The notes under the pieces: model-generated
Told to the model about the DNA's origin: nothing
What the model saw: the letters and a program-made list of their open reading frames with translations, nothing else
Databases searched by the model: none
Position numbers and translations under genes: made by a program
Assembly (NCBI GenBank): GCA_964016885.1
Contig: OZ024745.1
Span: 8,246,001 to 8,310,000, forward strand
Source: Eledone cirrhosa
Taxonomy: Eukaryota
Length of the DNA: 64,000 nucleotides
Reading direction: 5' to 3'
Shown here: positions 33,001 to 53,500 of the stretch, in pieces
How the letters are laid out: each line of letters begins with the position of its first letter
Position numbering within the stretch: position 1 is the first letter of the stretch

Positions 33001-35570
33001 ACAGGCTGAGTGTTATAGTCAAGTCACTTAAGCTTAGTGACAGGCTGAGTGTTATAGTCAAGACACTTAAGCTTAGTGACAGGCTGAGTGTTATAGTCAA
33101 GACACTTAAGCTTAGTGACAGGCTGAGTGTTATAATCAAGACACTTAATCTTAGTGACAAGCTTTTGGTTATACTCAAGACACTTAAGCTTAGTAACAGG
33201 CTGAGTATAATAGTCAAGACACTTAAGCTTAGTGACAGGCTGAGTGTTATACTCAAGACACTTAAGCTTAGTGACAGGTTGAGTATTATATTCAAGACAC
33301 TTAAGCTTAGTGACGGGTTGAGTGTTATAATCAAGTCACTTAAACTTAGTGACAGGCTGAGTGTTATACTCAAGACACTTAAGCTTAGTGACAGGCTGGG
33401 TGTTATAGTCAAGACACTTAAGCTTAGTAACAGGCTGAGTGTTATAATCAAGACACTTAAGCCTAGTGACAGGCTTAGTGTAATAGTCAAGACACTTAAG
33501 CTTTGTGACAGGCTGAGTGTTATATTCAAGACACTTATGTTAGTGACGGACTGAGTGTTATAGTCAAGACACTTAAGCTTAGTGACAGACTAAGTGTTAT
33601 AGTCAAGACACTTAAGCATAGTGACAGGCTGAGTGTTATAATCAAGACACTTAAGCTGACTGACAGACTGAGTGTTATAGTAAAGACACTTAAGCTTAGT
33701 GACAGGCTGAGTGTTATACTCAGTACACTTAAGCTTAGTGACAGGGTGAGTATTATATGCAAGACACTTAAGCTTAGTGACAGGCTGAGTGTTATACTCA
33801 AGACACTTAAGCTTAGTGACAGGCTGAGTGTTATAGTCAAGACACTTAAGCTTAGTGACAGGCTGAGTGTAATAGTCAAGACACTTAAGCTTAGTGACAG
33901 GCTGAGTGCTATACTCAAGACACTAAGCTTAATGACGGGCTGAGTGTTATAGTCAAGACACTTAAGCTTAGTGACAGGCTGAGTGTTATAGTCAACACAC
34001 TTAAGCTTAGTGACAGGCTGAGTGTTATAGTCAAGACACTTAAGTTTAGTGACAGGCTGAGTGTTATAGTCAAGTAACTTAAGCTTAGTGACGGGCTGAG
34101 TGTTATAGTCAAGACACTTAAGCTTATTGAGAGACTGAGTGTTATAATCAAGACACTTAAGCTTAGTGACAGGCTGAGTGTTATAGTCAAGACACTTAAG
34201 CTTAGTGACAGACTGAGTGTTATAGTCAAGACACTTAAGCTTAGTGACAGGCTGAGTGTTATAGTCAAGACACTTAAGCTTAATGACGGGCTGAGTGTTA
34301 TAGTCAAGACCCTGATGCTTAGTGACAGGCTGAGTGTTATAGTCAAGACACTTAATCTTAGTGACAAGCTGAGTGTTATAGTCAAGACACTTAAGCTTAG
34401 TGACAGGCTTAGTGTTATAGTCAAGTCACTTAAGCTTAGTGACAGGCTGAGTGTTATAGTCAAGACATTTAAGCTTAGTGACAGGCTTAGTGTTATAGTC
34501 AAGACACTTAAGCTTAGTGACAGGCTGAGTGTTATAGTCAAGACACTTAAGCTTAATGACGGGCTGAGTGTTATAGTCAAGACACTTAAGCTTAGTGACA
34601 GGCTGAGTGTTATACTCAATACACTTAAGCTTAGTGACAGGCTGCGTGTTATAGTCAAGACACTGATGCTTAGTGACAGGCTGAGTGTTATAGTCAAGAC
34701 ACTTAAGTTTAGTGACAGGCTGAGTGTTATAGTCAAGTAACTTAAGCTTAGTGACGGGCTGAGTGTTATAGTCAAGACACTTAAGCTTATTGAGAGACTG
34801 AGTGTTATAATCAAGACACTTAAGCTTAGTGACAGGCTGAGTGTTATAGTCAAGACACTTAAGCTTAGTGACAGACTGAGTGTTATAGTCAAGACACTTA
34901 AGCTTAGTGACAGGCTGAGTGTTATAGTCAAGACACTTAAGCTTAATGACGGGCTGAGTGTTATAGTCAAGACCCTGATGCTTAGTGACAGGCTGAGTGT
35001 TATAGTCAAGACACTTAATCTTAGTGACAAGCTGAGTGTTATAGTCAAGACACTTAAGCTTAGTGACAGGCTTAGTGTTATAGTCAAGTCACTTAAGCTT
35101 AGTGACAGGCTGAGTGTTATAGTCAAGACATTTAAGCTTAGTGACAGGCTTAGTGTTATAGTCAAGACACTTAAGCTTAGTGACAGGCTGAGTGTTATAG
35201 TCAAGACACTTAAGCTTAATGACGGGCTGAGTGTTATAGTCAAGACACTTAAGCTTAGTGACAGGCTGAGTGTTATACTCAATACACTTAAGCTTAGTGA
35301 CAGGCTGCGTGTTATAGTCAAGACACTGATGCTTAGTGACAGGCTGAGTGTTATAGTCAAGACACTTAATCTTAGTGACAGGCTGAGTGTTATAGTCAAG
35401 ACACTTAAACATAGTGACAGGCTTAGTGTTATAGTCAAGACACTTAAGCTTAGTGACAGGCTGAGTGTTATAGTCAAGACACTTAAGCTTAGTGACAGGC
35501 TGAGTGTTATAGTCAAGACACTTAAGCTTAGTGACAGGCTGAGTGTTATAGTCAAGACACTTAAGCTCAG
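1..35570. repeat. 39-bp tandem satellite array (~910 monomers, open at the left window edge); consensus GACACTTAAGCTTAGTGACAGGCTGAGTGTTATAGTCAA
   Basis: Uninterrupted head-to-tail repetition from base 1 to ~35567, then a degenerate partial monomer (TTAAGCTCAGATATGGCTTAGT). Recurrent 38-bp (CTTAAGTTAG) and 40-bp (AAGAAAACTTAA) variants. The consensus monomer has overlapping CTTAAG and AAGCTT sites. Confidence 0.99.
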
Positions 35571-36253
35571 ATATGGCTTAGTACAGTCCAGTTTGTGATA
35601 TCCACCGTGGGAACAACAACAATGTATAACGAGAATGATGAGTTGAAAACCTCGCTGAATATAGTTTATAGAGATCTTCCTTTGGCAATATGACTTGCTC
35701 TAGATATGTTCTTAGGGCTCAACTAATATCTTATATCAATACCAGAATTATGATGTCGACGACTAGTGCAGTTTTACATTGCAGTCTTTATCTATATAGC
35801 AGGGATTAAACATAGTTAAGATGTGTAATAAAACTCAAACATGTTATAATTAGTAGTGGGCTCTACGTAATTATGTAGCTATTTAAAACTTGGTAGAAAG
35901 AGTCGACGAAAGTTTAGTATTATTTACAGTTCATTATCCTAAAACTGATATACTATTCATTTCATTTAACACATAAAAAATATTAATAATGTCAAATATG
36001 AAATGCCTCTTGGAACATATAGCTTATTAACCTTATTTAATTAAGACTTGCGACGTTTACGTTTGCTCAATGACATTAATGAGAGAAATAAAATTAAACG
36101 GGAATGAAACGGAGTTAACTCTGGTGGCCGCCACCTTAGTTCCATACACCTCTGGGTCGTAGCGACAAAACAGCATTAGTTTTCTCCTATATTTTTCCCT
36201 TGAAATTCCATTCTATTGGATAATCATAATTTCGTTTCTTTCTCTGTACTTCA

Positions 36254-36255
<2 letters not shown>

Positions 36256-36345
<90 letters not shown>
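36256..36345. repeat. (GA)n microsatellite
   Basis: Pure GA run of ~90 bp. Confidence 0.98.
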
Positions 36346-36351
<6 letters not shown>

Positions 36352-37200
36352 ATTGTTTCCAACAATGTTAGTTTGCAGCCCCTAGTTCAGTAGTTTCTCT
36401 CGTCGTTTATTAACTGGCTATAGAAGGCCCTAAGAAAGAAAGCGAGAGAGAAGGAGATAGAAAAAGAGACAGAGAGGGGGTGAGGAAGAAAAAGAAAGAA
36501 AGAAAGACATGGTAGTTCATTGAAGAATGATCAAACGGTAGTCACCAATTGTCACATATACTTTCACGTCCTTTCTCTTATGTGCAAGCTCAAATGATTT
36601 TGAGTGGATAGGACAGAGCTTCTGTGAGTCGCTTTTAATCTCTTTCGCTCTTCCATTCATTTAAGCTCGTTTTTCTTCCTTTCTTTTTCTGTTCATTTTT
36701 TTCTCTACATTTTCATCTTCATCTTCACCTACTATAATTAGTCATAAGAAATATCTTTTGAAGATTTATCTCCCATCATATATTTTATCTTATTTTGTTT
36801 AACGATCACATAAAATATGTCACTCGCTCTTACTAGCAATCACTTTTATACCAACTTGCTATCGATTAGAGTTAGTAAAATTTAGTCGATTAATATCTAT
36901 TTTATAACCACCAATCCCTCTCGCTTAATCTCTCCACATTCCGTCTTTTACATTGCCTTCAGCTCCATCCCTGTCTCTCCTTTTCTGTCACTTCTGTCCC
37001 CTTGTTTTAATTCGTTTTCCCGCTTAAAGATCATTAGTCCAAGTTAACAATCACCTCACTCCCTTATAAACGACCCCATTAAAGTGAAAACACCCGGAGT
37101 AGTTGCTCGTCAATAATCGTCTAATATCTGATCAAAGTAACGTGACTAATCACCTTGTCAACTATCTCCAACCTATTTCAAACACTCCCTTAACGCTCTC

Positions 37201-37204
<4 letters not shown>

Positions 37205-37289
<85 letters not shown>
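37205..37289. repeat. Compound (TA)n(GA)n microsatellite
   Basis: Directly visible. Confidence 0.97.
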
Positions 37290-37292
<3 letters not shown>

Positions 37293-37487
37293 ATGTATCC
37301 CTTTCTGTTGATAACTATACCTTTATAGTCAATAGTTTCAAATGATCTTCTATGTCCATTCTACCCTCCAACTTTCCTCTCTCTCTGTATATTCGTATGT
37401 ACATATGTATGTATATATGTATATTTGTATGTATGTACTTATATTCTTACCAACTCTATGTACCTATCAATCTATCAATCTATCTCA

Positions 37488-37830
37488 CTACCTACCTACC
37501 TACCTACCTACCTACCTACCTACCTACCTACCTACCTACCTACCTACCTACCTACCTACCTATCTCTCTATCTCTCTCTCTCTCTCTACCTACCTACCTA
37601 CCTACCTACCTACCTATCTCTCTATCTCTCTCTCACTCTACCTACCTACCTACCTACCTACCTATCTCTCTCTCTACCTACCTACCTACCTACCTACCTA
37701 CCTACCTATCTCTCTACCTCTCTCTCTCTCTACCTACCTACCTACCTACCTACCTACCTACCTACCTACCTACCTACCTACCTACCTACCTACCTACCTA
37801 CCTACCTACCTATCTCTCTATCTATCTATC
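37488..37830. repeat. (CTAC)n tetranucleotide array interrupted by (CT)n/(CTAT)n
   Basis: Directly visible; source of the spurious 'LPTY' ORFs. Confidence 0.97.
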
Positions 37831-38043
37831 ACTATATAACAACATACCCATTATCAAAACTACTTATATATCTAGTATATAATAGGTTGTGTGTGTGATT
37901 GTGTGTGATCTAGTAGGTGTGTGTGTGGTGGAGATAATGTGTGTTTTTGTTTAAATGACTTCTCCATAAAATTGCATGTGTTAATTATTATTTGTGTGTA
38001 TATATGATAATTGAGTGTGTGTGTGTCTGATTTACATAAGTAT

Positions 38044-38044
<1 letters not shown>

Positions 38045-38105
<61 letters not shown>

Positions 38106-38213
38106 CATGCACATGCACACACACACAAACACACACACACACACACACACTCACACACACAAACACACACACAAATATGTATATATATGTATGTATGTGT
38201 GTGTGTGTGTGTG
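38045..38213. repeat. (CA)n microsatellite followed by (TA)/(TG)n
   Basis: Directly visible. Confidence 0.96.
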
Positions 38214-38474
38214 TTTATACAAAAGCAAAAACTATCGATCACCATTAAAAGTACATGCAGCCTCATGTTGATAGCGCCCTCTATAGTTTTGTGACACCAG
38301 CTAATGATTGCCGCGCCTGCGCAAAGGCACACACACAAGTAACCACATGCAAACACAGGTATACACACATAGACACAGGTAAACGTATAAAGATATACAT
38401 AAAACCATATATACACTTTCTCATATTCACTTTCATCACTTTTTTACAAATACATCTGTCGGTGATTCTATGAG

Positions 38475-38540
<66 letters not shown>
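38475..38540. repeat. Compound (CT)n(TA)n(GT)n microsatellite
   Basis: Directly visible. Confidence 0.96.
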
Positions 38541-38541
<1 letters not shown>

Positions 38542-38684
38542 TAAGTTCGAACTTTGAAGCACTGAAGGGTTATGAATTTCATAGAAAATGTAGACACAGA
38601 AAATGACTGTAAACACAGTTGCTTTAAATAATAGCATATAAAAGCGGGTAAAATACCCCTAGAGACGGGAGAAGGTGGTCAGAA

Positions 38685-38757
38685 GTAGCTACGAGGAATG
38701 GAACCTCATATCTATCAGATACTAGCTGACTGCGGTAACAGTTTGAGCTAAAGGGCC
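38685..38757 (-). pseudogene. Degenerate tRNA-like sequence (anticodon AGT, tRNA-Thr-like); pseudo-tRNA or the head of a SINE whose body may run to the microsatellite at ~38540
   Basis: Minus strand reads GGCCCTTTAGCTCAAACTGTTACCGCA GTCAG CTAGTAT CTGAT AGATAT GAGG TTCCATT CCTC. It has an A-box-like TAGCTCAAACTG, an anticodon stem GTCAG/CTGAT with loop CT-AGT-AT, and a T-arm GAGG/CCTC with B-box-like GGTTCCATTCC. The acceptor stem does not pair. Confidence 0.55.
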
Positions 38758-38858
38758 CCTGAGAACACTACCTGTGTGTATGTATATGTCTATATAAACA
38801 CACACACACATAAACACAAAGTGAAACCTTTGGTAACGAAACTACTTGATTATGGAGT

Positions 38859-39020
38859 GGGGTAGATTGGCAATATCGGTAGAGCGCCTGACAACAAAGT
38901 TAGCGACATAGAGTTACAGCCCTTTACGTTCTCAGTTCAAATTGCAACTTTCATCCTTACGGGATCGATAAAATAAAGTACCAGTAATGCATTAGGGGCG
39001 ATTTAATCGACTTTCCCTTT
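38859..39020 (+). mobile_element. tRNA-derived SINE, diverged copy (same family as the copies at 40051 and 40494)
   Basis: A box TGGCAATATCGG, B box CAGTTCAAAT. Shares the body CTTTCATCCTTACGGG.TCGATAAAATAAAGTACCAGTAATG with the two downstream copies. Confidence 0.8.
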
Positions 39021-39283
39021 GCCCATTATCCATTGCTGCAATATAGATGTGCCACATCTATAACAATGTTTGACTTAGGAACAAAACTTTCCTAACAGTA
39101 AGTCTACATCCAAAACATCCTTTAAAAAATTATTTCTACACAATTTATAAATAAAATTAAATACATAAAACACACAAAAAAGAAAAATCTTTCTCTATTT
39201 ATTGTTTTGTTTTACTTGATCGATATTTCAGAGAAGAGTGTGAACTTATAGTCACGAAGTCACTGAGAGGAACAAAAATAACA

Positions 39284-39338
39284 AGACAAACACCACATGT
39301 AGACAATCACTACATGTAGACAAACACCACATGTAGAC
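39284..39338. repeat. 17-bp minisatellite, about 3.2 copies (AGACAAACACCACATGT)
   Basis: Units start at 39284, 39301 and 39318. Confidence 0.85.
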
Positions 39339-39505
39339 TGAAGTCAATTGAAGATAAAAGCTAGCCAAATAAAACACTAACACACACATACACATACACA
39401 GAATTTACATGAGGGTGCCAAACAGACCTTTGTTTGAGAATCGATCTTTGCCATAAGTTTTTACTCGTTGTCAAATTATTGGAAAAACATGCAAAAAGGG
39501 TACTT

Positions 39506-39536
<31 letters not shown>

Positions 39537-39715
39537 ACGTGTGTGTGTGGAGGGAAAGAGAGAGTGGGGGGGGGGATTACATTCGTAAAAGTTCAGGCGA
39601 AAAAAGTTATGCCAACAAAGCTTCAAGCTCAATATAATTCCACGATCAGCCAAAAATGTTGATTCAGATAAATATAATGTCTTGACTAACTGTGTCATCT
39701 TGGATAGTCATCCAT

Positions 39716-39945
39716 TATATAAATCTGCTAGTTCACCTCTGGGAGTTGCATTGACGAAAACTATGCTATTTATTGCTGTCATACCACAAGTTCTTAATTC
39801 TTTCTATCTTATTCCAAAATGTTTTCCTATACATGGGGAAAGTTCCATTCACATCATTTACTACAATCTTTATCCATTTCGTCCTGGATCCTTTATACAT
39901 CCTGATCCTGTCTCTCTGATTGTAGCAAGAGGCATGTGGTGAATA
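39716..39945 (-). mobile_element. Probable decayed fragment of a Penelope-like retroelement ORF (post-RT thumb/linker region)
   Basis: Minus-strand translation HASCYNQRDRIRMYKG...DVNGTFPMYRKTFWNKIERIKNLWYDSNK, then after a frameshift SIVFVNATPRGELADLY. This matches my recollection of the PLE pattern SGY..R..D..G..PLYR...W...ER...WY...SV.FVP.TP..EL. Not verified by a search. Confidence 0.5.
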
Positions 39946-40050
39946 AAGTGTTGTATGTGTCTTTAATTCTTTAGGATTGCACATGCTGCAATTAGTATAT
40001 TATATTATAATATATTATACTATATTATATTACATTATAATATATCATGA

Positions 40051-40238
40051 GGGCGGTGAATTGGCAGTATCGGTAGAGGGTCGGACGCCATGCTTTCCAG
40101 CATAGTTATGTCTCTTTGCGGTCTGAGTTCAAATCCCGCTGAGGTTAACTTTGCTTTTCATCCTTACGGGGTCGATACAATAAAGTATCAGTAATGTACT
40201 GGGTAATTGCTGGCCTTGTGCCAAAAGTAGAAACAATT
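40051..40238 (+). mobile_element. tRNA-derived SINE (octopus-type)
   Basis: A box TGGCAGTATCGG (40062), B box GAGTTCAAATCCC (40125-40137), tail GCTGGCCTTGTGCCAAAAGTAGAAAC followed by AT-rich repeats. Confidence 0.85.
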
Positions 40239-40261
40239 ATATTATATTATATATATATAAA

Positions 40262-40445
40262 GACATTTTTTCCAATTCCATCCCGCCCATCCCCTCAATC
40301 TATCTTATTTCTCATTCTTTCTTCTGATGAAGGACTAGCGTCCGAAACGTTAAGACCCTCTTCCTACTATTTCAAGCGTTAACCTAATATGTCCCTTCCG
40401 TATACTCTACCGATTGTGTTGTTATTTCTGTTTACTTTTTACATA
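40262..40445 (+). mobile_element. ~190-bp HHR-bearing interspersed repeat (Penelope pseudo-LTR-like), copy 1
   Basis: Colinear homology with 43358-43550 (TTATTTCTCATTCT..GGACTA.CGTCCGAAACGT.AAGAC..TCAAGC.TTAA.CTAATAT..GTTTACTTTTT). Flanked by TA-rich microsatellites. Confidence 0.7.
40320..40355 (+). ncRNA. Minimal type I hammerhead ribozyme (Penelope-type, palindromic ACGU stem III)
   Basis: TCTT-CTGATGA-A-GGAC(TAGC)GTCC-GAAA-C-GT-T^AAGA. Stem I TCTT/AAGA, intact core boxes, 4-bp stem II, loopless ACGT stem III, predicted cleavage after GUU at 40351. Confidence 0.8.
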
Positions 40446-40493
40446 CATATATATATACATATGTGTGTATATATGTATAATATAATATAATAT

Positions 40494-40670
40494 AATTGTT
40501 TCTACTTTTTGGCACAAGCCAGCAATTATCTCAGTACATTACTGGTACTTTATTTTATCGACCCCGTAAGGATGAAAGGCAAAGTTAACCTCGGCGGGAT
40601 TTGAACTTAGATCGTAAAGGGACGTAACTATGCTGGAAAGCATAATCCAACCCTCTACCGATACTGCCAA
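40494..40670 (-). mobile_element. tRNA-derived SINE, inverted partner of 40051-40238
   Basis: Its reverse complement aligns to 40061-40238 with ~13 substitutions and a few small indels (hand count, ~90% identity). Confidence 0.85.
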
Positions 40671-40731
40671 TAATATAATATAATATAATATATTATAATA
40701 TAATATACTAATTGCAGACTTAGTATACTAA

Positions 40732-40775
40732 TTGATGATTCCAGACAGTTGTCTAGAAGAAACGGTCGTCAGTAA
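40732..40775 (+). ncRNA. Degenerate type I hammerhead ribozyme (second family)
   Basis: TTGATGA-TTCCAGAC(AGTT)GTCTAGAA-GAAA-C-GGTC-GT-C^AGTA. Stem II pairs 7/8, GAAAC box present, near-palindromic stem III ACGGTCGT, GUC triplet. C3 is changed to U and the 5' strand of stem I is disrupted. Confidence 0.55.
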
Positions 40776-40964
40776 TTGAATGTATTAAGCTAAAATTTGA
40801 TTGTTTTATATTTTGTATCTCTGCTCTGTAATACATCTGATAATTTTCATTGAGCTTTTTCTCTTACTGGTAATTGGGTAGTGCTTAATACTACCCTTTC
40901 ATATTAATAATTCTATATAACTCATATATAAATAATATTATTAGCATATATATATACATATATA

Positions 40965-40993
<29 letters not shown>

Positions 40994-40998
<5 letters not shown>

Positions 40999-41196
40999 AA
41001 TGAATATATGATAGGGATAAACACTGATACAAGTATACAAGTGTTTGCATTGCAAATGACCAAGTTAGCTAGATTGAAAAATACTAATTAAAATTATTTT
41101 AATTAGTATTTTTCAATCTAGCTAACTTGGTCATTTGCAATGCAAACACTTGTATACTTGTATCAGTGTTTATCCCTATCATATATTCAGTTGTAT
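40994..41196. repeat. Near-perfect palindrome, 101-bp arms, 1-nt centre (41095), abutting (TA)n on the left
   Basis: Arms are reverse complements apart from one mismatch (41000/41190). Confidence 0.95.
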
Positions 41197-41264
41197 TACA
41201 CGGCTCGGAAATATGCCTTTCTTTGAGCTATTTAATTGTAAAAGACTATTTGAGTTTATAACTC

Positions 41265-41297
<33 letters not shown>

Positions 41298-41305
<8 letters not shown>

Positions 41306-41540
41306 TAAGAGGAATTCCAACTTTGTCTGATTTACTCGTTTTATTTACAATCCTTTAAAATATATATAATGGTATTATAATGAAATAGTATGATAGAATA
41401 TTAAATTCTAAGTGTTAATTGAACACTTAGAATTTAATATTCTATCATACTATTTCATTATAATACCATTATATATATTTTAAAGGATTGTAAATAAAAC
41501 GAGTAAATCAGACAAAGTTGGAATTCCTCTTATTAATATA
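41298..41540. repeat. Perfect inverted repeat, 119-bp arms, 5-nt loop (AATTG, 41417-41421), abutting (TA)n on the left
   Basis: ATTAATAAGAGGAATTCC...AAGTGTT pairs with AACACTT...GGAATTCCTCTTATTAAT. Confidence 0.95.
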
Positions 41541-41588
41541 ATCTTCTATACACAATCATACACACCCGTGTATATTTACCTATCTATA

Positions 41589-41625
<37 letters not shown>

Positions 41626-41861
41626 GTAAGTATGTATGTATACGTACATACATATATGTATACAGACGTACAGTAGCATGTATATATATATATATATATA
41701 CATACATACATGCAGGTACACATACATATATGCACGCATCAGTTTAGCAGACGCTTATTATAGCGCTGCTTTGTTCGTTTGTCAACAAACTGAACAGCCT
41801 GAATTTATGCCATACGGTGTTAAGGCAACCACGTCACCTTTTTGTTCAACACTGACACAGG

Positions 41862-41906
41862 AACGATGTACTAGTTTCAAGCTTGTTAGCTATCATCAGC
41901 ACCGTT
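41862..41906 (-). ncRNA. Type I hammerhead ribozyme, copy A
   Basis: Exact reverse complement of 42685-42729. Confidence 0.88.
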
Positions 41907-42329
41907 TACCCATCTGCCAGATAGTTGAACGTTCGAAAGTATATACTTTCCTTATGAAAATTAACGGCTGAGCAGCCTAAATTGCATATTGAGTGAGTTA
42001 AATCGGTCAGGCATACCGAAAACGATAAGTTGAAAAAAAATGAAAACGAAAAACGAAATTTCATTTCTCACTCTTAGTATGGCACTTACTTAAATGTAAG
42101 TATGTATGTATACGTACATACATATATGTATACAGACGTACAGTAGCATGTATATATATATATATATACATACATACATGCAGGTACACATACATATATG
42201 CACGCATCAGTTTAGCAGACGCTTATTATAGCGCTGCTTTGTTCGTTTGTCAACAAACTGAACAGCCTGAATTTATGCCATACGGTGTTAAGGCAACCAC
42301 GTCACCTTTTTGTTCAACACTGACACAGG

Positions 42330-42374
42330 AACGATGTACTAGTTTCAAGCTTGTTAGCTATCATCAGCACCGTT
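42330..42374 (-). ncRNA. Type I hammerhead ribozyme, copy B
   Basis: Exact reverse complement of 42685-42729; 468 bp from copy A. Confidence 0.88.
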
Positions 42375-42684
42375 TACCCATCTGCCAGATAGTTGAACGT
42401 TCGAAAGTATATACTTTCCTTATGAAAATTAACGGCTGAGCAGCCTAATTTGCATATTGAGTGAGTTAAATCGGTCTGTATGCATACATACTTACATTTA
42501 AGTAAGTGCCATACTAAGAGTGAGAAATGAAATTTCGTTTTTCGTTTTCATTTTTTTTCAACTTATCGTTTTCGGTATGCCTGACCGATTTAACTCACTC
42601 AATATGCAAATTAGGTTGCTCAGCCGTTAATTTTCATAAGGAAAGTATATACTTTCGAACGTTCAACTATCTGGCAGATGGGTA

Positions 42685-42729
42685 AACGGTGCTGATGATA
42701 GCTAACAAGCTTGAAACTAGTACATCGTT
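42685..42729 (+). ncRNA. Type I hammerhead ribozyme, copy C
   Basis: AACGGTG-CTGATGA-T-AGCT(AACA)AGCT-T-GAAA-C-TA-GT-A^CATCGTT. 7-bp stem I (one G.U), intact CUGAUGA and GAAA boxes, 4-bp stem II with U.U at 10.1/11.1, palindromic stem III ACUAGU, GUA cleavage triplet (cut after 42722). Confidence 0.9.
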
Positions 42730-43029
42730 CCTGTGTCAGTGTTGAACAAAAAGGTGACGTGGTTGCCTTAACACCGTATGGCATAAATTCAGGCTGTTCA
42801 GTTTGTTGACAAACGAACAAAGCAGCGCTATAATAAGCGTCTGCTAAACTGATGCGTGCATATATGTATGTGTACCTGCATGTATGTATGTATATATATA
42901 TATATATACATGCTACTGTACGTCTGTATACATATATGTATGTACGTATACATACATACTTACAATTAAGTAAGTGCCATACTAAGAGTGAGAAATGAAA
43001 TTTCGTTTTTCGTTTTCATTTTTTTTCAA

Positions 43030-43058
<29 letters not shown>

Positions 43059-43067
<9 letters not shown>

Positions 43068-43167
43068 TTAAAAAATAATGAATAAAACAATGAAACAGTT
43101 CCTTATATTAAACAAAAAAAGAAGGAACTGTTTCATTGTTTTATTCATTATTTTTTAAATATTTTAT
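43059..43167. repeat. Inverted repeat, 46-bp arms, 17-nt loop, abutting (TA)n on the left
   Basis: ATAAAATATTTAAAAAATAATGAATAAAACAATGAAACAGTTCCTT (43059-43104) and its reverse complement (43122-43167). Confidence 0.93.
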
Positions 43168-43298
43168 CTTGACTCTGTATTCCGTTTATCTTTCACCGAA
43201 AGTGATTTTTCATTGCATCTCTTCTTTCCATGATATCCGGATTACATTGAGTTCTTCATACGGATTGGACACTACCGTAAACTCTTGGTAGATTTATC

Positions 43299-43329
<31 letters not shown>

Positions 43330-43357
43330 TTCCAAAATGTCTGGCTGAATACAAAAA

Positions 43358-43550
43358 CTTTTATTCCATTCCTTCTTCATTTCTCTCTATCTTTTATTTC
43401 ATCTTTTATTTCTCATTCTCTCTTCTCATTAATGGACTAACGTCCGAAACGTAAAGACTAATTTCCTATGATATCAAGCATTAAACTAATATATTTCTTC
43501 ATTGTACTGTGGTGTTTGCTTTGTTGTTTCGGTTTACTTTTTGAATACAT
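43358..43550 (+). mobile_element. ~190-bp HHR-bearing interspersed repeat, copy 2, with an inactivated ribozyme core (43421-43457)
   Basis: TCTT-CTCATTA-AT-GGAC(TAAC)GTCC-GAAAC-GT-A^AAGA. Stems I-III are retained but CUGAUGA has mutated to CUCAUUA. Homologous to 40262-40445. Confidence 0.7.
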
Positions 43551-43555
43551 ATATA

Positions 43556-44037
43556 TGTGTGTGTGTGTTAATGTGTGTATATATGTGTGTACGTGAGTAT
43601 GTGTTAGTGTCTAAGTGTGTGTGTAAGTGTGTGTGAGTGTGTGTTAGTGTGTGGGTATAAGTGTGTGTGTGTGCATGAGTGTGTATTAGTGTGTGTGTGC
43701 GTGTGTGTACGTGATTGTGTGTTAGTGGGTGTGTATTTGTGTGCGTTCGTGAGTGTGCGTTCGTGAGTGTATGTTAGTGTGTGTGTGTGAATATGTGTTA
43801 GTCTGTGTATGTATATGTTTGTGTACGTGAGTGTATGTTAGTCTGTGTGTATATGTGCGTGAGTGTGTGTTAGTGTGTGTGTGTGAGTGTGTGTTAGTGT
43901 GTGTGTGTATATGTGTGTGAGTGTGTGTATATGTGTGTTAGTGTGTGTTAGTGTGTGTGTGTATATGTGTGTGAGTGTGTGTTAGTGTGTGTGTTAGTGT
44001 GTGTGTGTGTGTGTGTTAGTGTGTACATATGTGTGTA
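43556..44037. repeat. Degenerate (GT)n-rich array with GTGTTA/GTGA interruptions
   Basis: Directly visible. Confidence 0.93.
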
Positions 44038-44177
44038 TGATCGACACATGAAGTCTGTTGATATACTAAAAGTAGTGAGCTACATTCAATTTCTCAACTT
44101 GTAATATTTATTCTACTTTAGTAGATATTGCTACATCAGCCAGTATCACTATATATAACCTATCATTCTAACACACA

Positions 44178-44196
44178 CTCTCTCTCTCTCTCTCTC

Positions 44197-44260
<64 letters not shown>
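44178..44260. repeat. (CT)n/(CTAT)n microsatellite
   Basis: Directly visible. Confidence 0.96.
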
Positions 44261-44443
44261 AATCCAAACTATTGTCATTGAAACAACTTATTTGAAACAA
44301 TCATCGTTAAATGATTACTGATGCAGAAAACTTAACACCAATGTTCATATTAGCGCGTCTTCATCGAAGCTAAGAAATATTTTCTATTGCGCTATATATG
44401 GTTAATTGCACTCTATATGGTTGTTAGCAGTTTGGCCCCATGA

Positions 44444-44561
44444 CAGTGGTTCCCAACCTTTTGGGCACCATGCCCCACCTCAAAATCTCAAAAATTGCTA
44501 CGCCCTCCCCCTTTGATATGAAAACATTGATGATCAACTGCAAAATCTAAACAATTTGGTG
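44444..44561 (+). mobile_element. Putative left end of a hAT (Charlie/Buster-like) DNA transposon or MITE
   Basis: Begins CAGTGGTTCCCAACCTTTT, matching the CAGTGGTTC(C/T)CAA(A/C)C terminal motif of hAT-Charlie elements. I did not find the partner TIR in the window. Confidence 0.6.
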
Positions 44562-47500
44562 TATAGGTGGTGCCAGATGTACAATAACATGTGGAGGGGA
44601 TATGTCAAGAGTTTCTGACAGTAAAATCTACCATATAGGTGGTGCCAGATGTACAATAACATGTGGAGGGGATATGTCAAGAGTTTCTGACAGTAATATC
44701 TACCATATAGGTGGTGCCAGATGTACAATAACATGTGGATGGGATGTGTCAAGAGTTTCTGACAGTAAAATCTACCATATAGGTGGTGCCAGATGTACAA
44801 TAACATGTGGAGGGGATATGTCAAGAGTTTCTGACAGTAATATCTACCATATAGGTGGTGCCAGATGTACAATAACATGTGGAGGTGTGTCAAGAGTTTC
44901 TGACAATAATGTCTACCATATAGGTGGTGCCAGATGTACAATAACATGTGGAGGGGATATGTCAAGAGTTTCTGACAGTAATGTCTACCATATAGGTGGT
45001 GCCAGATGTACAATAACATGTGGAGGAGGTGTGTCAAGAGTTTCTGACAGTAATATCTACCATATAGGTGGTGCCAGATGTACAATAACATGTGGAGGTG
45101 TGTCAAGAGTTTCTGACAGTAATGTCTACCATATAGGTGGTGCCAGGTGTACAATAACATGTGGAGGTGTGTCAAGAGTTTCTGACAGTAATGTCTACCA
45201 TATAGGTGGTGCCAGATGTACAATAACATGTGGAGGTGTGTCAAGAGTTTCTGACAGTAATATCTACCATATAGATGGTGCCAGATGTACAATAACATGT
45301 GGAGGTGTGTCAAGAGTTTCTGACAGTAATGTCTACCATATAGGTGGTGCCAGATGTACAATAACATGTGGAGGTGTGTCAAGAGTTTCTGACAGTAATG
45401 TCTACCATATAGGTGGTGCCAGATGTACAATAACATGTGGATGGGATGTGTCAAGAGTTTCTGACAGTAATATCTACCATATAGGTGGTGCCAGATGTAC
45501 AATAACATGTGGAGGTGTGTCAAGAGTTTCTGACAGTAATATCTACCATATAGGTGGTGCCAGATGTACAATAACATGTGGAGGTGTGTCAAGAGTTTCT
45601 GACAGTAATATCTACCATATAGGTGGTGCCAGGTGTACAATAACATGTGGAGGTGTGTCAAGAGTTTCTGACAGTAATGTCTACCATATAGGTGGTGCGA
45701 GGTGTACATTAACATGTGGATGGGATGTGTCAAGAGTTTCTGACAGTAATATCTACCATATAGGTGGTGCCAGATGTACAATAACATGTGGAGGGGATAT
45801 GTCAAGAGTTTCTGACAGTAATATCTACCATATAGGTGGTGCCAGATGTACAATAACATGTGGAGGTGTGTCAAGAGTTTCTGACAGTAATGTCTACCAT
45901 ATAGGTGGTGCCAGGTGTACAATAACATGTGGAGGTGTGTCAAGAGTTTCTGACAGTAATGTCTACCATATAGGTGGTGCCAGATGTACAATAACATGTG
46001 GAGGGGATGTGTCAAGAGATTCTGACAGTAATGTCTACCATATAGATGGTGCCAGATGTACAATAACATGTGGAGGAGGTGTGTCAAGAGTTTCTGACAG
46101 TAATGTCTACCATATAGGTGGTGCCAGATGTACAATAACATGTGGATGGGATGTGTCAAGAGTTTCTGACAGTAATGTCTACCATATAGGTGGTGCCAGA
46201 TGTACAATAACATGTGGATGGGATATGTCAAGAGTTTATGACAGTAATATCTACCATATAGGTGGTGCCAGGTGTACAATAACATGTGGAGGGGATATGT
46301 CAAGAGTTTCTGACAGTAATGTCTACCATATAGGTGGTGCCAGGTGTACAATAACATGTGGAGGTGTGTCAAGAGTTTCTGACAGTAATGTCTACCATAT
46401 AGGTGGTGCCAGATGTACAATAACATGTGGAGGGGATGTGTCAAGAGTTTCTGACAGTAATGTCTACCATATAGGTGGTGCCAGATGTACAATAACATGT
46501 GGATGGGAAGTGTCAAGAGTTTCTGACAGTAATATCTACCATATAGGTGGTGCCAGGTGTACAATAACATGTGGAGGTGTGTCAAGAGTTTCTGACAGTA
46601 ATGTCTACCATATAGGTGGTGCCAGGTGTACAATAACATGTGGATGGGATGTGTGAAGAGTTTCTGACAGTAATATCTACCATATAGGTGGTGCCAGGTG
46701 TACAATAACATGTGGAGGGGATATGTCAAGAGTTTCTGACAGTAATATCTACCATATAGGTGGTGCCAGGTGTACAATAACATGTGGAGGTGTGTCAAGA
46801 GTTTCTGACAGTAATGTCTACCATATAGGTGGTGCCAGGTGTACAATAACATGTGGATGGGATGTGTCAAGAGTTTCTGACAGTAATATCTACCATATAG
46901 GTGGTGCCAGGTGTACAATAACATGTGGAGGTGTGTCAAGAGTTTCTGACAGTAATGTCTACCATATAGGTGGTGCCAGGTGTACAATAACATGTGGATG
47001 GGATGTGTCAAGAGTCTCTGACAGTAATATCTACCATATAGGTGGTGCCAGATGTACAATAACATGTGGAGGAGGTGTGTCAAGAGTTTCTGACAGTAAT
47101 GTCTACCATATAGGTGGTGCCAGATGTACAATAACATGTGGAGGAGGTGTGTCAAGAGTTTCTGACAGTAATGTCTACCATATAGGTGGTGCCAGATGTA
47201 CAATAACATGTGGATGGGATGTGTCAAGAGTTTCTGACAGTAATATCTACCATATAGGTGGTGCCAGATGTACAATAACATGTGGAGGGGATATGTCAAG
47301 AGTTTCTGACAGTAATATCTACCATATAGGTGGTGCCAGATGTACAATAACATGTGGAGGTGTGTCAAGAGTTTCTGACAGTAATGTCTACCATATAGGT
47401 GGTGCCAGGTGTACAATAACATGTGGAGGTGTGTCAAGAGTTTCGGACAGTAATGTCTACCATATAGGTGGTGCCAGATGTACAATAACATGTGGAGGGG

Positions 47501-50500
47501 ATGTGTCAACAGTTTCTGACAGTAATGTCTACCATATAGATGGTGCCAGATGTACAATAACATGTGCAGGAGGTGTGTCAAGAGTTTCTGACAGTAATGT
47601 CTACCATATAGGTGGTGCCAGATGTACAATAACATGTGGATGGGATGTGTCAAGAGTTTCTGACAGTAATGTCTACCATATAGGTGGTGCCAGATGTACA
47701 ATAACATGTGGATGGGATATGTCAAGAGTTTATGACAGTAATGTCTACCATATAGGTGGTGCCAGGTGTACAATAACATGTGGAGGGGATATGTCAAGAG
47801 TTTCTGACAGTAATATCTACCATATAGGTGGTGCCAGATGTACAATAACATGTGGATGGGATGTGTCAAGAGTTTCTGACAGTAATGTCTACCATATAGG
47901 TGGTGCCAGATGTACAATAACATGTGGAGGGGATATGTCAAGAGTTTCTGACAGTAATGTCTACCATATAGGTGGTGCCAGATGTACAATAACATGTGGA
48001 TGGGATGTGTCAAGAGTTTCTGACAGTAATATCTACCATATAGGTGGTGCCAGGTGTACAATAACATGTGGAGGTGTGTCAAGAGTTTCTGACAGTAATG
48101 TCTACCATATAGGTGGTGCCAGGTGTACAATAACATGTGGATGGGATGTGTCAAGAGTTTCTGACAGTAATATCTACCATATAGGTGGTGCCAGGTGTAC
48201 AATAACATGTGGAGGTGTGTCAAGAGTTTCTGACAGTAATGTCTACCATATAGGTGGTGCCAGGTGTACGATAACATGTGGATGGGATGTGTCAAGAGTT
48301 TCTGACAGTAATATCTACCATATAGGTGGTGCCATATGTACAATAACATGTGGAGGGGATGTGTCAAGAGTTTCTGACAGTAATGTCTACCATATAGGTG
48401 GTGCCAGATGTACAATAACATGTGGAGGAGGTGTGTCAAGAGTTTCTGACAGTAATGTCTACCATATAGGTGGTGCCAGATGTACAATAACATGTGGAGG
48501 AGGTGTGTCAAGAGTTTCTGACAGTAATGTCTACCATATAGGTGGTGCCAGATGTACAATAACATGTGGATGGGATGTGTCAAGAGATTCTGACAGTAAT
48601 GTCTACCATATAGGTGGTGCCAGATGTACAATAACATGTGGATGGGATATGTCAAGAGTTTCTGACAGTAATGTCTACCATATAGGTGGTGCCAGGTGTA
48701 CAATAACATGTGGAGGGGATATGTAAAGAGTTTCTGACAGTAATGTCTACCATATAGGTGGTGCCAGATGTACAATAACATGTGGATGGGATGTGTCAAG
48801 AGTTTCTGACAGTAATATCTACCATATAGGTGGTGCCAGGTGTACAATAACATGTGGAGGTGTGTCAAGAGTTTCTGACAGTAATATCTACCATATAGGT
48901 GGTGCCAGGTGTACAATAACATGAGGAGGGGATATGTCAAGAGTTTCAGACAGTAATGTCTACCATATAGGTGGTGCCAGGTGTACAATAACATGTGGAG
49001 GGGATATGTCAAGAGTTTCTGACAGTAATGTCTACCATATAGGTGGTGCCAGATGTACAATAACATGTGGATGGGATGTGTCAAGAGTTTCTGACAGTAA
49101 TGTCTACCATATAGGTGGTGCCAGATGTACAATAACATGTGGATGGGATGTGTCAAGAGTTTCTGACAGTAATATCTACCATATAGGTGGTGCCAGGTGT
49201 ACAATAACATGTGGAGGTGTGTCAAGAGTTTCTGACAGTAATGTCTACCATATAGGTGGTGCCAGGTGTGCAATAACATGTGGATTGGATGTGTCAAGAG
49301 TTTCTGACAGTAATATCTACCATATAGGTGGTGCCAGATGTACAATAACATGTGGAGGACGTGTGTCAAGAGTTTCTGACAGTAATGTCTACCATATAGG
49401 TGGTGCCAGATGTACAATAACATGTGGAGGAGGGGTGTCAAGAGTTTCTGACAGTAATATCTACCATATAGGTGGTGCCAGATGTACAATAACATGTGGA
49501 GAAGGTGTGTCAAGAGTTTCTGACAGTAATGTCTACCATATAGGTGGTACCAGATGTACAATAACATGTGGAGGAGGTGTGTCAAGAGTTTCTGACAGTA
49601 ATGTCTACCATATAGGTGGTGCCAGATGTACAATAACATGTGGAGGAGGTGTGTCAAGAGTTTCTGACAGTAATATCTACCATATAGGTGGTGCCAGGTG
49701 TACAATAACATGTGGAGGAGGTGTGTCAAGAGTTTCTGACAGTAATATCTACCATATAGGTGGTGCCAGGTGTACAATAACATGTGGAGGAGGTGTGTCA
49801 AGAGTTTCTGACAGTAATATCTACCATATAGGTGGTGCCAGGTGTACAATAACATGTGGAGGAGGTGTGTCAAGAGTTTCTGACAGTAATATCTACCATA
49901 TAGGTGGTGCCAGGTGTACAATAACATGTGGAGGAGGTGTGTCAAGAGTTTCTGACAGTAATATCTACCATATAGGTGGTGCCAGGTGTACAATAACATG
50001 TGGAGGTGTGTCAAGAGTTTCTGACAGTAATGTCTACCATATAGGTGGTGCCAGGTGTACAATAACATGTGGAGGTGTGTCAAGAGTTTCTGACAGTAAT
50101 GTCTACCATATAGGTGGTGCCAGGTGTACAATACCATGTGGAGGGGATATGTCAAGAGTTTCTGACAGTAATGTCTACCATATAGGTGGTGCCAGGTGTA
50201 CAATAACATGTGGAGGGGATATGTCAAGAGTTTCTGACAGTAATATCTACCATATAGGTGGTGCCAGATGTACAATAACATGTGGAGGTGTGTCAAGAGT
50301 TTCTGACAGTAATGTCTACCATATAGGTGGTGCCAGATGTACAATAACATGTGGATGGGATGTGTCAAGAGTTTCTGACAGTAATATCTACCATATAGGT
50401 GGTGCCAGGTGTACAATAACATGTGGAGGTGTGTCAAGAGTTTCTGACAGTAATGTCTACCATATAGGTGGTGCCAGGTGTACAATAACATGTGGAGGGG

Positions 50501-53500
50501 ATATGTCAAGAGTTTCTGACAGTAATGTCTACCATATAGGTGGTGCCAGGTGTACAATAACATGTGAATGGGATGTGTCAAGAGTTTCTGACAGTAATGT
50601 CTACCATATAGGTGGTGTCAGGTGTACAAAAACATGTGGAGGGGATATGTCAAGAGTTTCTGACAGTAATATCTACCATATAGGTGGTGCCAGATGTACA
50701 ATAACATGTGGAGGAGGTGTGTCAAGAGTTTCTGACAGTAATGTCTACCATATAGGTGGTGCCAGATGTACAATAACATGTGGAGGAGGTGTGTCAAGAG
50801 TTTCTGACAGTAATGTCTACCATATAGGTGGTGCCAGATGTACAATAACATGTGGAGGGAGTGTGTCAAGAGTTTCTGACAGTAATGTCTACCATATAGG
50901 TGGTGCCAGGTGTACAAAAACATGTGGAGGGGATATGTCAAGAGTTTCTGACAGTAATGTCTACCATATAGGTGGTGCCAGATGTACAATAACATGTGGA
51001 TGGGATGTGTCAAGAGTTTCTGACAGTAATATCTACCATATAGGTGGTGCCAGGTGTACAATAACATGTGGAGGGGATATGTCAAGAGTTTCTGACAGTA
51101 AAGTCTACCATATAGGTGGTGCCAGATGTACAATAACATGTGGATGGGATGTGTCAAGGGTTTCTGACAGTAATGTCTACCATATAGGTGGTGCCAGGTG
51201 TACAATAACATGTGGAGGTGTGTCAAGAGTTTCTGACAGTAATGTCTACCATACAGGTGGTGCCAGGTGTACAATAACATGTGGATGGGATGTGTCAAGA
51301 GTTTCTGACAGTAATATCTACCATATAGGTGGTGCCAGATGTACAATAACATGTGGATGGGATATGTCAAGAGTTTCTGACAGTAATATCTACCATATAG
51401 GTGGTGTCAGGTGTACAAAAACATGTGGAGGGGATATGTCAAGAGTTTCTGACAGTAATATCTACCATATAGGTGGTGCCAGATGTACAATAACATGTGG
51501 AGGAGGTGTGTCAAGAGTTTCTGACAGTAATGTCTACCATATAGGTGGTGCCAGATGTAAAATAACATGTGGAGGAGGTGTGTCAAGAGTTTCTGACAGT
51601 AATGTCTACCATATAGGTGGTGCCAGATGTACTATAACATGTGGAGGAGGTGTGTCAAGAGTTTCTGACAGTAATGTCTACCATATAGGTGGTGCCAGAT
51701 GTACAATAACATGTGGATGGGATATGTCAAGAGTTTCTGACAGTAATGTCTACCATATAGGTGGTGCCAGGTGTACAAAAACATGTGGAGGGGATATGTC
51801 AAGAGTTTCTGACAGTAATGTCTACCATATAGGTGGTGCCAGATGTACAATAACATGTGGATGGGATGTGTCAAGAGTTTCTGACAGTAATATCTACCAT
51901 ATAGGTGGTGCCAGGTGTACAATAACATGTGGAGGGGATATGTCAAGAGTTTCTGACAGTAACGTCTACCATATAGGTGGTGCCAGGTGTACAATAACAT
52001 GTGGAGGGGATATGTCAAGAGTTTCTGACAGTAATGTCTACCATATAGGTGGTGCCAGATGTACAATAACATGTGGATGGGATGTGTCAAGAGTTTCTGA
52101 CAGTAATGTCTACCATATAGGTGGTGCCAGATGTACAATAACATGTGGATGGGATGTGTCAAGAGTTTCTGACAGTAATATCTACCATATAGGTGGTGCC
52201 AGGTGTACAATAACATGTGGAGGTGTGTCAAGAGTTTCTGACAGTAATGTCTACCATATAGGTGGTGCCAGGTGTGCAATAACATGTGGATTGGATGTGT
52301 CAAGAGTTTCTGACAGTAATATCTACCATATAGGTGGTGCCAGATGTACAATAACATGTGGAGGACGTGTGTCAAGAGTTTCTGACAGTAATGTCTACCA
52401 TATAGGTGGTGCCAGATGTACAATAACATGTGGAGGAGGGGTGTCAAGAGTTTCTGACAGTAATATCTACCATATAGGTGGTGCCAGATGTACAATAACA
52501 TGTGGAGAAGGTGTGTCAAGAGTTTCTGACAGTAATGTCTACCATATAGGTGGTACCAGATGTACAATAACATGTGGAGGAGGTGTGTCAAGAGTTTCTG
52601 ACAGTAATGTCTACCATATAGGTGGTGCCAGATGTACAATAACATGTGGAGGAGGTGTGTCAAGAGTTTCTGACAGTAATATCTACCATATAGGTGGTGC
52701 CAGGTGTACAATAACATGTGGAGGAGGTGTGTCAAGAGTTTCTGACAGTAATATCTACCATATAGGTGGTGCCAGGTGTACAATAACATGTGGAGGAGGT
52801 GTGTCAAGAGTTTCTGACAGTAATATCTACCATATAGGTGGTGCCAGGTGTACAATAACATGTGGAGGAGGTGTGTCAAGAGTTTCTGACAGTAATATCT
52901 ACCATATAGGTGGTGCCAGGTGTACAATAACATGTGGAGGAGGTGTGTCAAGAGTTTCTGACAGTAATATCTACCATATAGGTGGTGCCAGGTGTACAAT
53001 AACATGTGGAGGAGGTGTGTCAAGAGTTTCTGACAGTAATATCTACCATATAGGTGGTGCCAGGTGTACAATAACATGTGGAGGTGTGTCAAGAGTTTCT
53101 GACAGTAATGTCTACCATATAGGTGGTGCCAGGTGTACAATAACATGTGGAGGTGTGTCAAGAGTTTCTGACAGTAATGTCTACCATATAGGTGGTGCCA
53201 GGTGTACAATACCATGTGGAGGGGATATGTCAAGAGTTTCAGACAGTAATGTCTACCATATAGGTGGTGCCAGGTGTACAATAACATGTGGAGGGGATAT
53301 GTCAAGAGTTTCTGACAGTAATGTCTACCATATAGGTGGTGCCAGATGTACAATAACATGTGGATGGGATGTGTCAAGAGTTTCTGACAGTAATGTCTAC
53401 CATATAGGTGGTGCCAGATGTACAATAACATGTGGATGGGATGTGTCAAGAGTTTCTGACAGTAATATCTACCATATAGGTGGTGCCAGGTGTACAATAA

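What the first reader, a model, noticed from the sequence alone, without database searches (positions are those of the whole stretch)
40946..43330. Chain of four consecutive (TA)n-bounded fold-back modules
Seen: (TA)n tracts at ~40946-40996, 41265-41301, 41591-41622, 43032-43060 and 43303-43329 delimit four unrelated segments. Every segment contains an inverted duplication with one arm starting exactly at a TA tract: 101-bp arms, 119-bp arms, ~452-bp arms (42025-42476 / 42583-43034) and 46-bp arms. The other arm continues 50-400 bp to the next TA tract. Four out of four is unlikely to be chance. Inference: a recurrent process at (TA)n sites (cruciform breakage followed by templated, possibly RT-mediated, two-ended fill-in) repeatedly captures unrelated sequences, with the retrozyme insertion as one instance. 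The region would be a self-renewing insertion hotspot.
Basis: partly seen in the sequence, partly recalled or inferred. Interest (0 to 1): 0.72.

Follow-up and report, generated by a model that had tools for sequence, protein, structure and literature searches.

The report
Four stacked Penelope retrotransposon ends
The four hairpin-shaped pieces between TA repeats are the shortened, folded-back ends of four abundant repeat families, two tied to Penelope-like jumping genes and two likely hitch-hiking on them, so this is a known insertion footprint and not a new way of capturing unrelated DNA.

Summary
The anatomy is real, but the four modules are not captured unrelated DNA. Each is the 3' end of a repeat family with fixed ends. 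Module 2 is 171/171 identical to the end of an RT + GIY-YIG element of Neptune/Nematis type; its tail-less end occurs 1,669 times. Module 4 is the end of a Hydra-type element (193 such ends). Modules 1 and 3 are ~510- and 468-bp non-coding monomers (retrozyme type). All show the published Penelope-like layout: inverted truncated arm, a tail on one arm only, (TA)n target. In 600 kb sampled blind, 23 of 89 inverted repeats had this layout (chance 2.6). Adjacent modules show no polarity bias (23 of 48 same-direction). Likely mechanism: both ends of a cut in (TA)n prime reverse transcription at two fixed sites on the element RNA, and the two cDNAs join by microhomology. Small extras: tails of 50-135 nt (published 30-40), a shared CTC...GAGY motif in 12 of 20 tail families, and arms that stop at a likely transcription start (34 of 59) or near the ribozyme cut. 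The scan has noted the same footprint many times elsewhere in this genome and others.

The parts
40946..40996 (.). (TA)n target remnant, left border
40994..41094 (-). Module 1 inverted arm; starts at the family's fixed tail-less end (monomer position ~430)
   Evidence: 199 exact TA+end junctions in the genome; same end in the 30 loci read; map on monomer
41096..41270 (+). Module 1 direct arm (41096-41196) plus ~75-nt tail; 3' third of a ~510-bp non-coding monomer that also forms tandem arrays
   Evidence: 2,540 first-look candidates
41271..41302 (.). (TA)n spacer
41298..41424 (-). Module 2 inverted arm; fixed tail-less end at 41298, and it stops at the predicted ribozyme cut site of the parent
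   Evidence: 1,669 exact left ends; cut site in parent L159; 19 copies of this exact junction
41422..41590 (+). Module 2 direct arm plus 50-nt tail (41541-41590): 3' end of a Neptune/Nematis-type RT + GIY-YIG element
   Evidence: 171/171 identical to L159 6507-6677 and L147; Pfam RVT_1 and GIY-YIG in L147; CX4CxxC linker
41591..41622 (.). (TA)n spacer
41621..42476 (-). Module 3 inverted arm: 468-bp monomer positions 402 to 1, then 468 to 17; tail-less end at 41621
   Evidence: L029; an arm ends at monomer 392-402 beside TA in 9 of 13 other insertions
42478..43034 (+). Module 3 direct arm: monomer 380-468, then a full monomer; tail 42969-43034 (~66 nt)
   Evidence: 2,243 first-look candidates
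42687..42727 (+). Predicted minimal type I hammerhead motif with palindromic loop III (cut before 42723); antisense copies cut at 42336 and 41868
   Evidence: descriptor search; Rfam scan listed no hammerhead family at E<=1; activity untested
43032..43061 (.). (TA)n spacer
43059..43109 (-). Module 4 inverted arm; fixed tail-less end
   Evidence: 193 exact left ends; same end in the 30 loci read
43117..43302 (+). Module 4 direct arm plus 135-nt tail (43168-43302): 3' end of a Hydra-type RT + GIY-YIG element with a ~3.5-kb simple-repeat-rich 3' region
   Evidence: 9 of 12 fetched long copies carry the same ORF pieces, 89-100% identical, in sense with this end; DKT, CxCX5C, CxxC..E..N..CxH motifs
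43302..43329 (.). (TA)n target remnant, right border

Best explanation
The region holds the 3' ends of four different multicopy families, each with an inverted arm and a one-sided tail between (TA)n runs, likely left by four separate insertions of Penelope-like retroelements (PLEs). Shown: module 2 belongs to a Neptune/Nematis-type and module 4 to a Hydra-type RT + GIY-YIG element; modules 1 and 3 are non-coding monomer families with the same end layout. Inferred mechanism: the element's endonuclease cuts both strands in (TA)n. One DNA end primes reverse transcription at the element's outer start site (the tail end), the other at an inner start site 50-135 nt upstream. Both cDNAs are antisense and stop early, often at the RNA 5' end. 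One then anneals to the other by a few bases and is extended, which gives a head-to-head palindrome with a tail on one arm. Each insertion leaves (TA)n on both sides, so later elements can land next door and chains build up. Modules 1 and 3 would borrow the enzyme in trans.
For: Fixed ends in hundreds to thousands of dispersed copies. Module 2 identity to the end of RT + GIY-YIG elements, and L159 is itself a 3.3-kb palindrome with the same left end and the ORF in both arms. Of 70 module-2 left ends read, 59 ended within the locus; 45 of these were followed at once by a direct arm and 39 of the 45 reached the tail end. For module 1, 22 of 30 and for module 4, 12 of 30 had a direct piece reaching the tail end within 1.5 kb (many module-4 copies are longer than that). 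Layout, tail and (TA)n preference are published (PMC8557442; PMC3846280). A purified PLE protein cuts and extends both strands and starts at two internal sites that bound the tail (PMC11167929). Module 2's centre shows a 3-nt microhomology.
Against: No coding partner was found for modules 1 and 3 (over the fetched loci; no dedicated genome search), so their mobilisation by a PLE enzyme is inferred from the footprint alone. The module 4 parent's ORF gave no Pfam RT or GIY-YIG match; it rests on motifs and 27-28% identity to the Neptune-type RT (E 2e-8), and is in pieces in the copies read. Tails are longer than the published 30-40 nt. The joining step has not been shown in any PLE; PMC3846280 proposes self-priming instead. 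No target-site duplication can be read in (TA)n, and no empty allele was seen. The four locus-specific centres were not confirmed in independent reads.
Confidence: 0.9

Rival explanations
1. Breaks at (TA)n cruciforms are repaired by copying unrelated host sequences or transcripts, with fold-back.
For: (TA)n can form cruciforms (general knowledge); the four segments are unrelated to each other; ends sit at (TA)n genome-wide.
Against: All four donors are multicopy families whose two ends are fixed to within a few bases in many copies; two encode their own RT and endonuclease. Random capture would not give family-specific ends. A host break could still replace the element's own cut in some events.
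Confidence: 0.04
2. The palindromes are amplification or assembly fold-back chimeras.
For: Near-perfect arms in the window (0-2 mismatches); locus-specific centres not confirmed in short-read contigs.
Against: Arms of 23 sampled modules range from 85.4 to 99.4% identity, so many are old; ends are fixed per family and the tail length is family-specific; the same layout surrounds coding elements.
Confidence: 0.02
3. Same elements, different joining step: a single cDNA snaps back on itself, copies itself as far as the inner site and is then joined to the other target end.
For: Module 2's centre is a 3-bp stem with a 5-nt loop; self-priming is proposed in PMC3846280; 2 of 9 other copies of the module 2 junction have the tail on the arm that such a snap-back predicts (L200, L202).
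Against: In the window and in 6 of those 9 copies the loop belongs to the tail-less arm, which could not regain the tail by copying itself; many copies have long spacers of either sense. This rival changes the mechanism, not the classification.
Confidence: 0.2
4. The four modules moved together as one composite unit or one read-through transcript, which would explain their common direction.
For: All three internal junctions are tail-end to tail-less end.
Against: Among 48 other two-sided TA tracts the counts are 23 same-direction, 14 and 11 opposed, as expected from independent orientation (about 24); three of three has a chance of 1 in 8. Neighbours differ from locus to locus.
Confidence: 0.03

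Closest known systems
Insertion units of endonuclease-bearing Penelope-like elements (Craig et al. 2021, PMC8557442; Arkhipova et al. 2013, PMC3846280)
   Same: 5' truncation, partial tandems, adjacent inverted truncated copy, tail at one end only, (TA)n preference.
   Different: Tails here are 50-135 nt and family-specific, against 30-40 nt in the passages read; four families are stacked end to end.
Neptune/Nematis-type PLE (module 2 parent)
   Same: RT then C-terminal GIY-YIG, DKG motif, CX4CxxC linker, CCHH-type cysteines and histidines, minimal hammerhead in the terminal repeat.
   Different: Neptune versus Nematis not resolved (no tree); the window copy is only the last ~170 nt.
Hydra-clade PLE (module 4 parent; PMC8557442 section 11)
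   Same: DKT, CxCX5C linker, CxxC and CxH around conserved E and N, hammerhead motif, (TA)n target.
   Different: Longest copies reach ~8-9 kb from the end with a ~3.5-kb simple-repeat-rich 3' region, against 'generally <3 kb'; 135-nt tail; RWK motif not checked.
Animal non-LTR retrozymes (bioRxiv 10.64898/2026.07.22.740005; PLE hammerheads in PMC4209133)
   Same: Non-coding monomers in head-to-tail arrays with a type I hammerhead motif (module 3 canonical core; module 1 a variant core).
   Different: Here dispersed copies carry the full PLE footprint (inverted arm, tail, TA target); the passages read from the preprint link retrozymes to PLEs by co-occurrence and terminal-repeat homology. No RNA or circle seen here.
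Poseidon_Ac of Anolis (Frangieh et al. 2024, PMC11167929)
   Same: Two start sites bounding the tail, both strands cut and extended, AT-rich target, stem-loop at the start site.
   Different: In that system uncut RNA is the main template and no reads end at the ribozyme cut; here a minority of arms end at or near it.

Membership tests
EN+ Penelope-like element, Neptune/Nematis type (module 2 family) | Single ORF with RT followed by C-terminal GIY-YIG | tested here: met
   L147 636 aa: RVT_1 E 2.9e-6 (27.6 bits, below the 29.6 cut-off), GIY-YIG E 8.9e-7; 3' end identical to module 2
EN+ Penelope-like element, Neptune/Nematis type (module 2 family) | CX2-5CxxC linker before the GIY-YIG motif, DKG motif | tested here: met
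EN+ Penelope-like element, Neptune/Nematis type (module 2 family) | Inverted truncated copy plus tail at one end, in (TA)n | tested here: met
   39 of 45 copies with an adjacent direct arm reach the tail; tail 50 nt, longer than 30-40
EN+ Penelope-like element, Neptune/Nematis type (module 2 family) | Hammerhead motif in the terminal repeat | tested here: met
   descriptor hit in L159; fold z-score 0.30, so no support from energy; cleavage untested
EN+ Penelope-like element, Neptune/Nematis type (module 2 family) | Placement in the Neptune or Nematis clade of an RT tree | not tested
   no reference proteins were in hand
Hydra-clade PLE (module 4 family) | DKT, CxCX5C linker, CxxC/CxH around E and N | tested here: met
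   against PMC8557442 section 11
Hydra-clade PLE (module 4 family) | RT domain and C-terminal GIY-YIG | tested here: inconclusive
   no Pfam match; 27-28% to Neptune-type RT, E 2e-8; YRDD and YIGxT motifs; ORF in pieces in the copies read
Hydra-clade PLE (module 4 family) | Hammerhead motif and (TA)n target | tested here: met
   descriptor hit in L012 with a 117-nt helix II region; TA upstream of the 30 left ends read, the last five letters being part of the query
Hydra-clade PLE (module 4 family) | N-terminal RWK motif; short length (<3 kb) | tested here: inconclusive
   RWK not examined; copies are longer than 3 kb, but the paper says 'generally'
Non-LTR retrozyme (modules 1 and 3) | Non-coding monomer in tandem arrays | tested here: met
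   ~510-bp arrays on C11; 468-bp arrays
Non-LTR retrozyme (modules 1 and 3) | Type I hammerhead in each monomer | tested here: inconclusive
   module 3 met; module 1 missed by the descriptor, only a variant core read by eye with helices I and III in the fold
Non-LTR retrozyme (modules 1 and 3) | Self-cleaving, circular RNA in vivo | not testable with these tools
   no raw RNA reads of this organism were offered
Naiad/Chlamys PLE | N-terminal endonuclease, no canonical hammerhead | tested here: not met
   both parents found have the endonuclease at the C-terminus and a hammerhead motif
Foldback/MITE DNA transposon | Equal terminal inverted repeats reaching both ends | tested here: not met
   no inverted repeat among 89 had both ends flush with TA; one arm carries a tail

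The most novel reading that the evidence does not exclude
These very abundant footprints read out the PLE cycle in vivo. A shared CTC...GAGY hairpin in the tail positions the inner start site across Neptune-type, Hydra-type and non-coding families. Most short copies are run-off cDNAs of a short terminal-repeat transcript. A minority end at the hammerhead cut, meaning ribozyme-cleaved RNA serves as template in vivo, unlike in the one in vitro system. Retrozymes are integrated by the same two-ended reaction.
Probability: 0.35. Interest if true: 0.5.

Novelty: new member of a known kind. Interest (0 to 1): 0.22.

Why it matters
As a locus it is ordinary: by rough extrapolation from 22-23 modules in 600 kb this genome holds on the order of 100,000 such inserts. 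Its value is as data on an open step. How PLEs make their inverted arms and tails, and what their hammerheads do, is stated to be unresolved (PMC8557442, PMC11167929 passages). Young families with thousands of copies give exact start and stop sites that can be taken to an in vitro assay. It also matters for annotation, since such palindromes can be mistaken for MITEs, microRNA hairpins or assembly errors (one search returned many sub-threshold microRNA matches).

Tried and rejected
Rfam scan of 35400-44700: 109 matches at E<=1, none reaching a gathering score, none a hammerhead family. DNA search with module 2 returned nothing, not even itself, and module 4 only 6 candidates; exact patterns later showed 1,669 and 193 ends, so those blanks came from the tool's filter for common words. 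Sequencing runs: no RNA holder listed. Laying contigs and RAD reads showed all four families present but could not test the locus-specific centres, because pieces are 31-170 nt and fit several places: no verdict. Polarity bias in chains: tested, none. Coding partner for modules 1 and 3 among the fetched loci: none found. tblastn of six PLE proteins on the window: no hit. ORFs inside L304 and L305 first looked like the module 4 parent but are ~40% identical inserts of another family. The regex tally of module 3 ends was too crude and was not used. One search's fold of the module 1 motif failed on a variant copy and was redone. In one search one of the 23 modules has a CA-run as 'tail' and is probably false. 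In one search, 27 of 74 modules were dropped for simple-sequence tails, and 4 singleton families were left out of the polarity library.

Full report
Setting. The window is G000:C5:8246001-8310000 of a 3.0-Gb assembly. The finding lies in a ~9-kb island between a 39-bp satellite (1-35567) and a 72-bp satellite (44562-64000). That the animal is an octopus is my recollection from its repeats and appears in earlier AI notes; no call of mine tested it.

Observation. The five TA tracts and four palindromes are present as described. Module 3 needs re-parsing: 1.85 inverted and 1.19 direct copies of a 468-bp monomer, with the tail-less end at 41621. All four modules then read TA, inverted arm, direct arm, tail, TA, with tails of about 75, 50, 66 and 135 nt.

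Each module is a repeat family. Module 1: 2,540 first-look candidates, with ~510-bp tandem arrays and dispersed palindromic copies; 199 exact TA-plus-left-end junctions. Module 3: 2,243 candidates; an arm ends at monomer position 392-402 beside TA in 9 of 13 other insertions. Module 2: 1,669 exact left ends. Module 4: 193. Backward-read control patterns gave 0 in each pattern search.

Two families are coding PLEs. A GIY-YIG search gave 10,597 candidates, 150 scored; I fetched 20 with long frames. Several are RT-GIY-YIG ORFs inside palindromes with one end flush to TA. Module 2 is 171/171 identical to the 3' end of L159 and L147, and the inverted arm of L159 starts at the same base. [quoted passage not shown] For module 4, 12 of the 30 loci whose arm ran on were fetched at 10 kb. 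Nine carry the same ORF pieces, 89-100% identical, in sense with the end, with DKT, CxCX5C and CxxC..E..N..CxH, the Hydra features of PMC8557442 section 11. Pfam did not recognise this ORF. No coding partner was found for modules 1 and 3. Hammerhead motifs were found by descriptor in module 3 (three copies) and in the parents of modules 2 and 4, of the small palindromic-helix-III type described in PMC4209133 (passages). Module 1 has only a variant core read by eye.

Genome-wide test. Sixty 10-kb stretches were taken at round coordinates, blind to content. Of 89 inverted repeats, 23 had one end flush with (TA)n and a 24-179-nt tail to the next tract; 2,000 random placements gave a mean of 2.6 and a maximum of 9; none had both ends flush. 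Their arms are 85.4-99.4% identical, which argues against fold-back chimeras. Tails fall into about 20 families with family-specific lengths. Of 1,428 merged TA tracts, 48 had a classified end on both sides: 23 same-direction, 14 and 11 opposed, as expected from independent orientation. Chains are therefore common, and the common direction here is a 1-in-8 event.

Mechanism. Published: the layout and the (TA)n bias (PMC8557442; PMC3846280 passages), and a purified PLE protein that cuts and extends both strands and starts at two internal sites bounding the tail (PMC11167929, parts 1-2 of 4 read). Seen here: in 70 module 2 loci (the first 70 listed, all on C1, L159's own site skipped), 59 left arms end within the locus. 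Of these, 34 stop at -80 to -60 from the ribozyme cut with a peak at -73, about 26-30 nt behind a TATA-like box, and direct arms start at the same place. I infer that both arms are run-off copies of a short transcript. In module 2 the loop belongs to the tail-less arm, which cannot regain the tail by copying itself; the same holds for 6 of 9 other copies of that junction, while 2 have the reverse and 1 has both tails. Two separately primed cDNAs joined by microhomology explain both forms. This joining step is inferred.

Possible additions. (a) The module 2 arm in the window ends at the predicted ribozyme cut. This exact junction occurs 19 times including the window, two of them probably a local duplicate. 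Four of 11 arms ending between -59 and +126 lie within 5 nt of the cut (P 0.003), and 5 of 30 module 1 arms end 3-10 nt past its putative cut (P 0.001). These windows were chosen after seeing the data, and local hairpins could produce the same peaks. (b) 12 of 20 tail families have CTC near the inner end and GAGY further on, against a shuffle mean of 1.0 and maximum of 6. The pattern was designed from these tails. It is seen in module 4 and, by fold, in module 1, but the representatives of the module 1, 2 and 3 families did not match it. (c) Tails exceed the published 30-40 nt. I did not meet these points in the listings of searches or in the passages read; supplements were not seen. The retrozyme-PLE link is argued in bioRxiv 10.64898/2026.07.22.740005 (abstract and passages), and Penelope-like elements are recently active in Octopus vulgaris (PMC13282606 passages).

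Verdict. Observation confirmed; interpretation partly right. Four likely separate PLE-type insertions of a known kind, a footprint that the scan has already noted many times in this genome and others. Interest 0.22.

Noticed in passing
window 1-35567 and 44562-64000: Two long satellites (39-bp unit, ~913 copies; 72-bp unit, ~272 copies) enclose a ~9-kb island that holds the finding.
   Followed up: no
window 39986-40265 and 40466-40717: Two inverted copies (82% identical) of a SINE-like repeat flank a hammerhead-like repeat at ~40280-40460; a third, older copy lies at ~38855-38990.
   Followed up: no
window 43330-43550 and 40305-40479: Two older related repeats (77% identical) with hammerhead-like cores; each hits 8 of the 60 random loci. 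The first abuts the last TA tract and may be a fifth, older insert. My descriptor did not score them.
   Followed up: partly
L304 ~2800-4700 and L305 ~3750-5150 (oriented coordinates): A second Hydra-like family (~40% identical) is inserted inside long copies of the module 4 family.
   Followed up: partly
G000:C11:4450000-4490000 (L002-L010, L015-L018): The module 1 monomer forms a tandem array spanning at least 25 kb with no TA tracts, that is, a satellite built from a retrozyme-type unit.
   Followed up: partly
L162 287-3483 and 6804-10000: A 3.2-kb block holding a PLE palindrome and its TA flanks is repeated at 6.5-kb spacing with 99.6% identity: a recent tandem duplication or an assembly duplicate.
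   Followed up: no
L306 1923-4921 / 5771-8766: An 8.7-kb module-4-family palindrome made mostly of TA/CA-rich 3' region.
   Followed up: no
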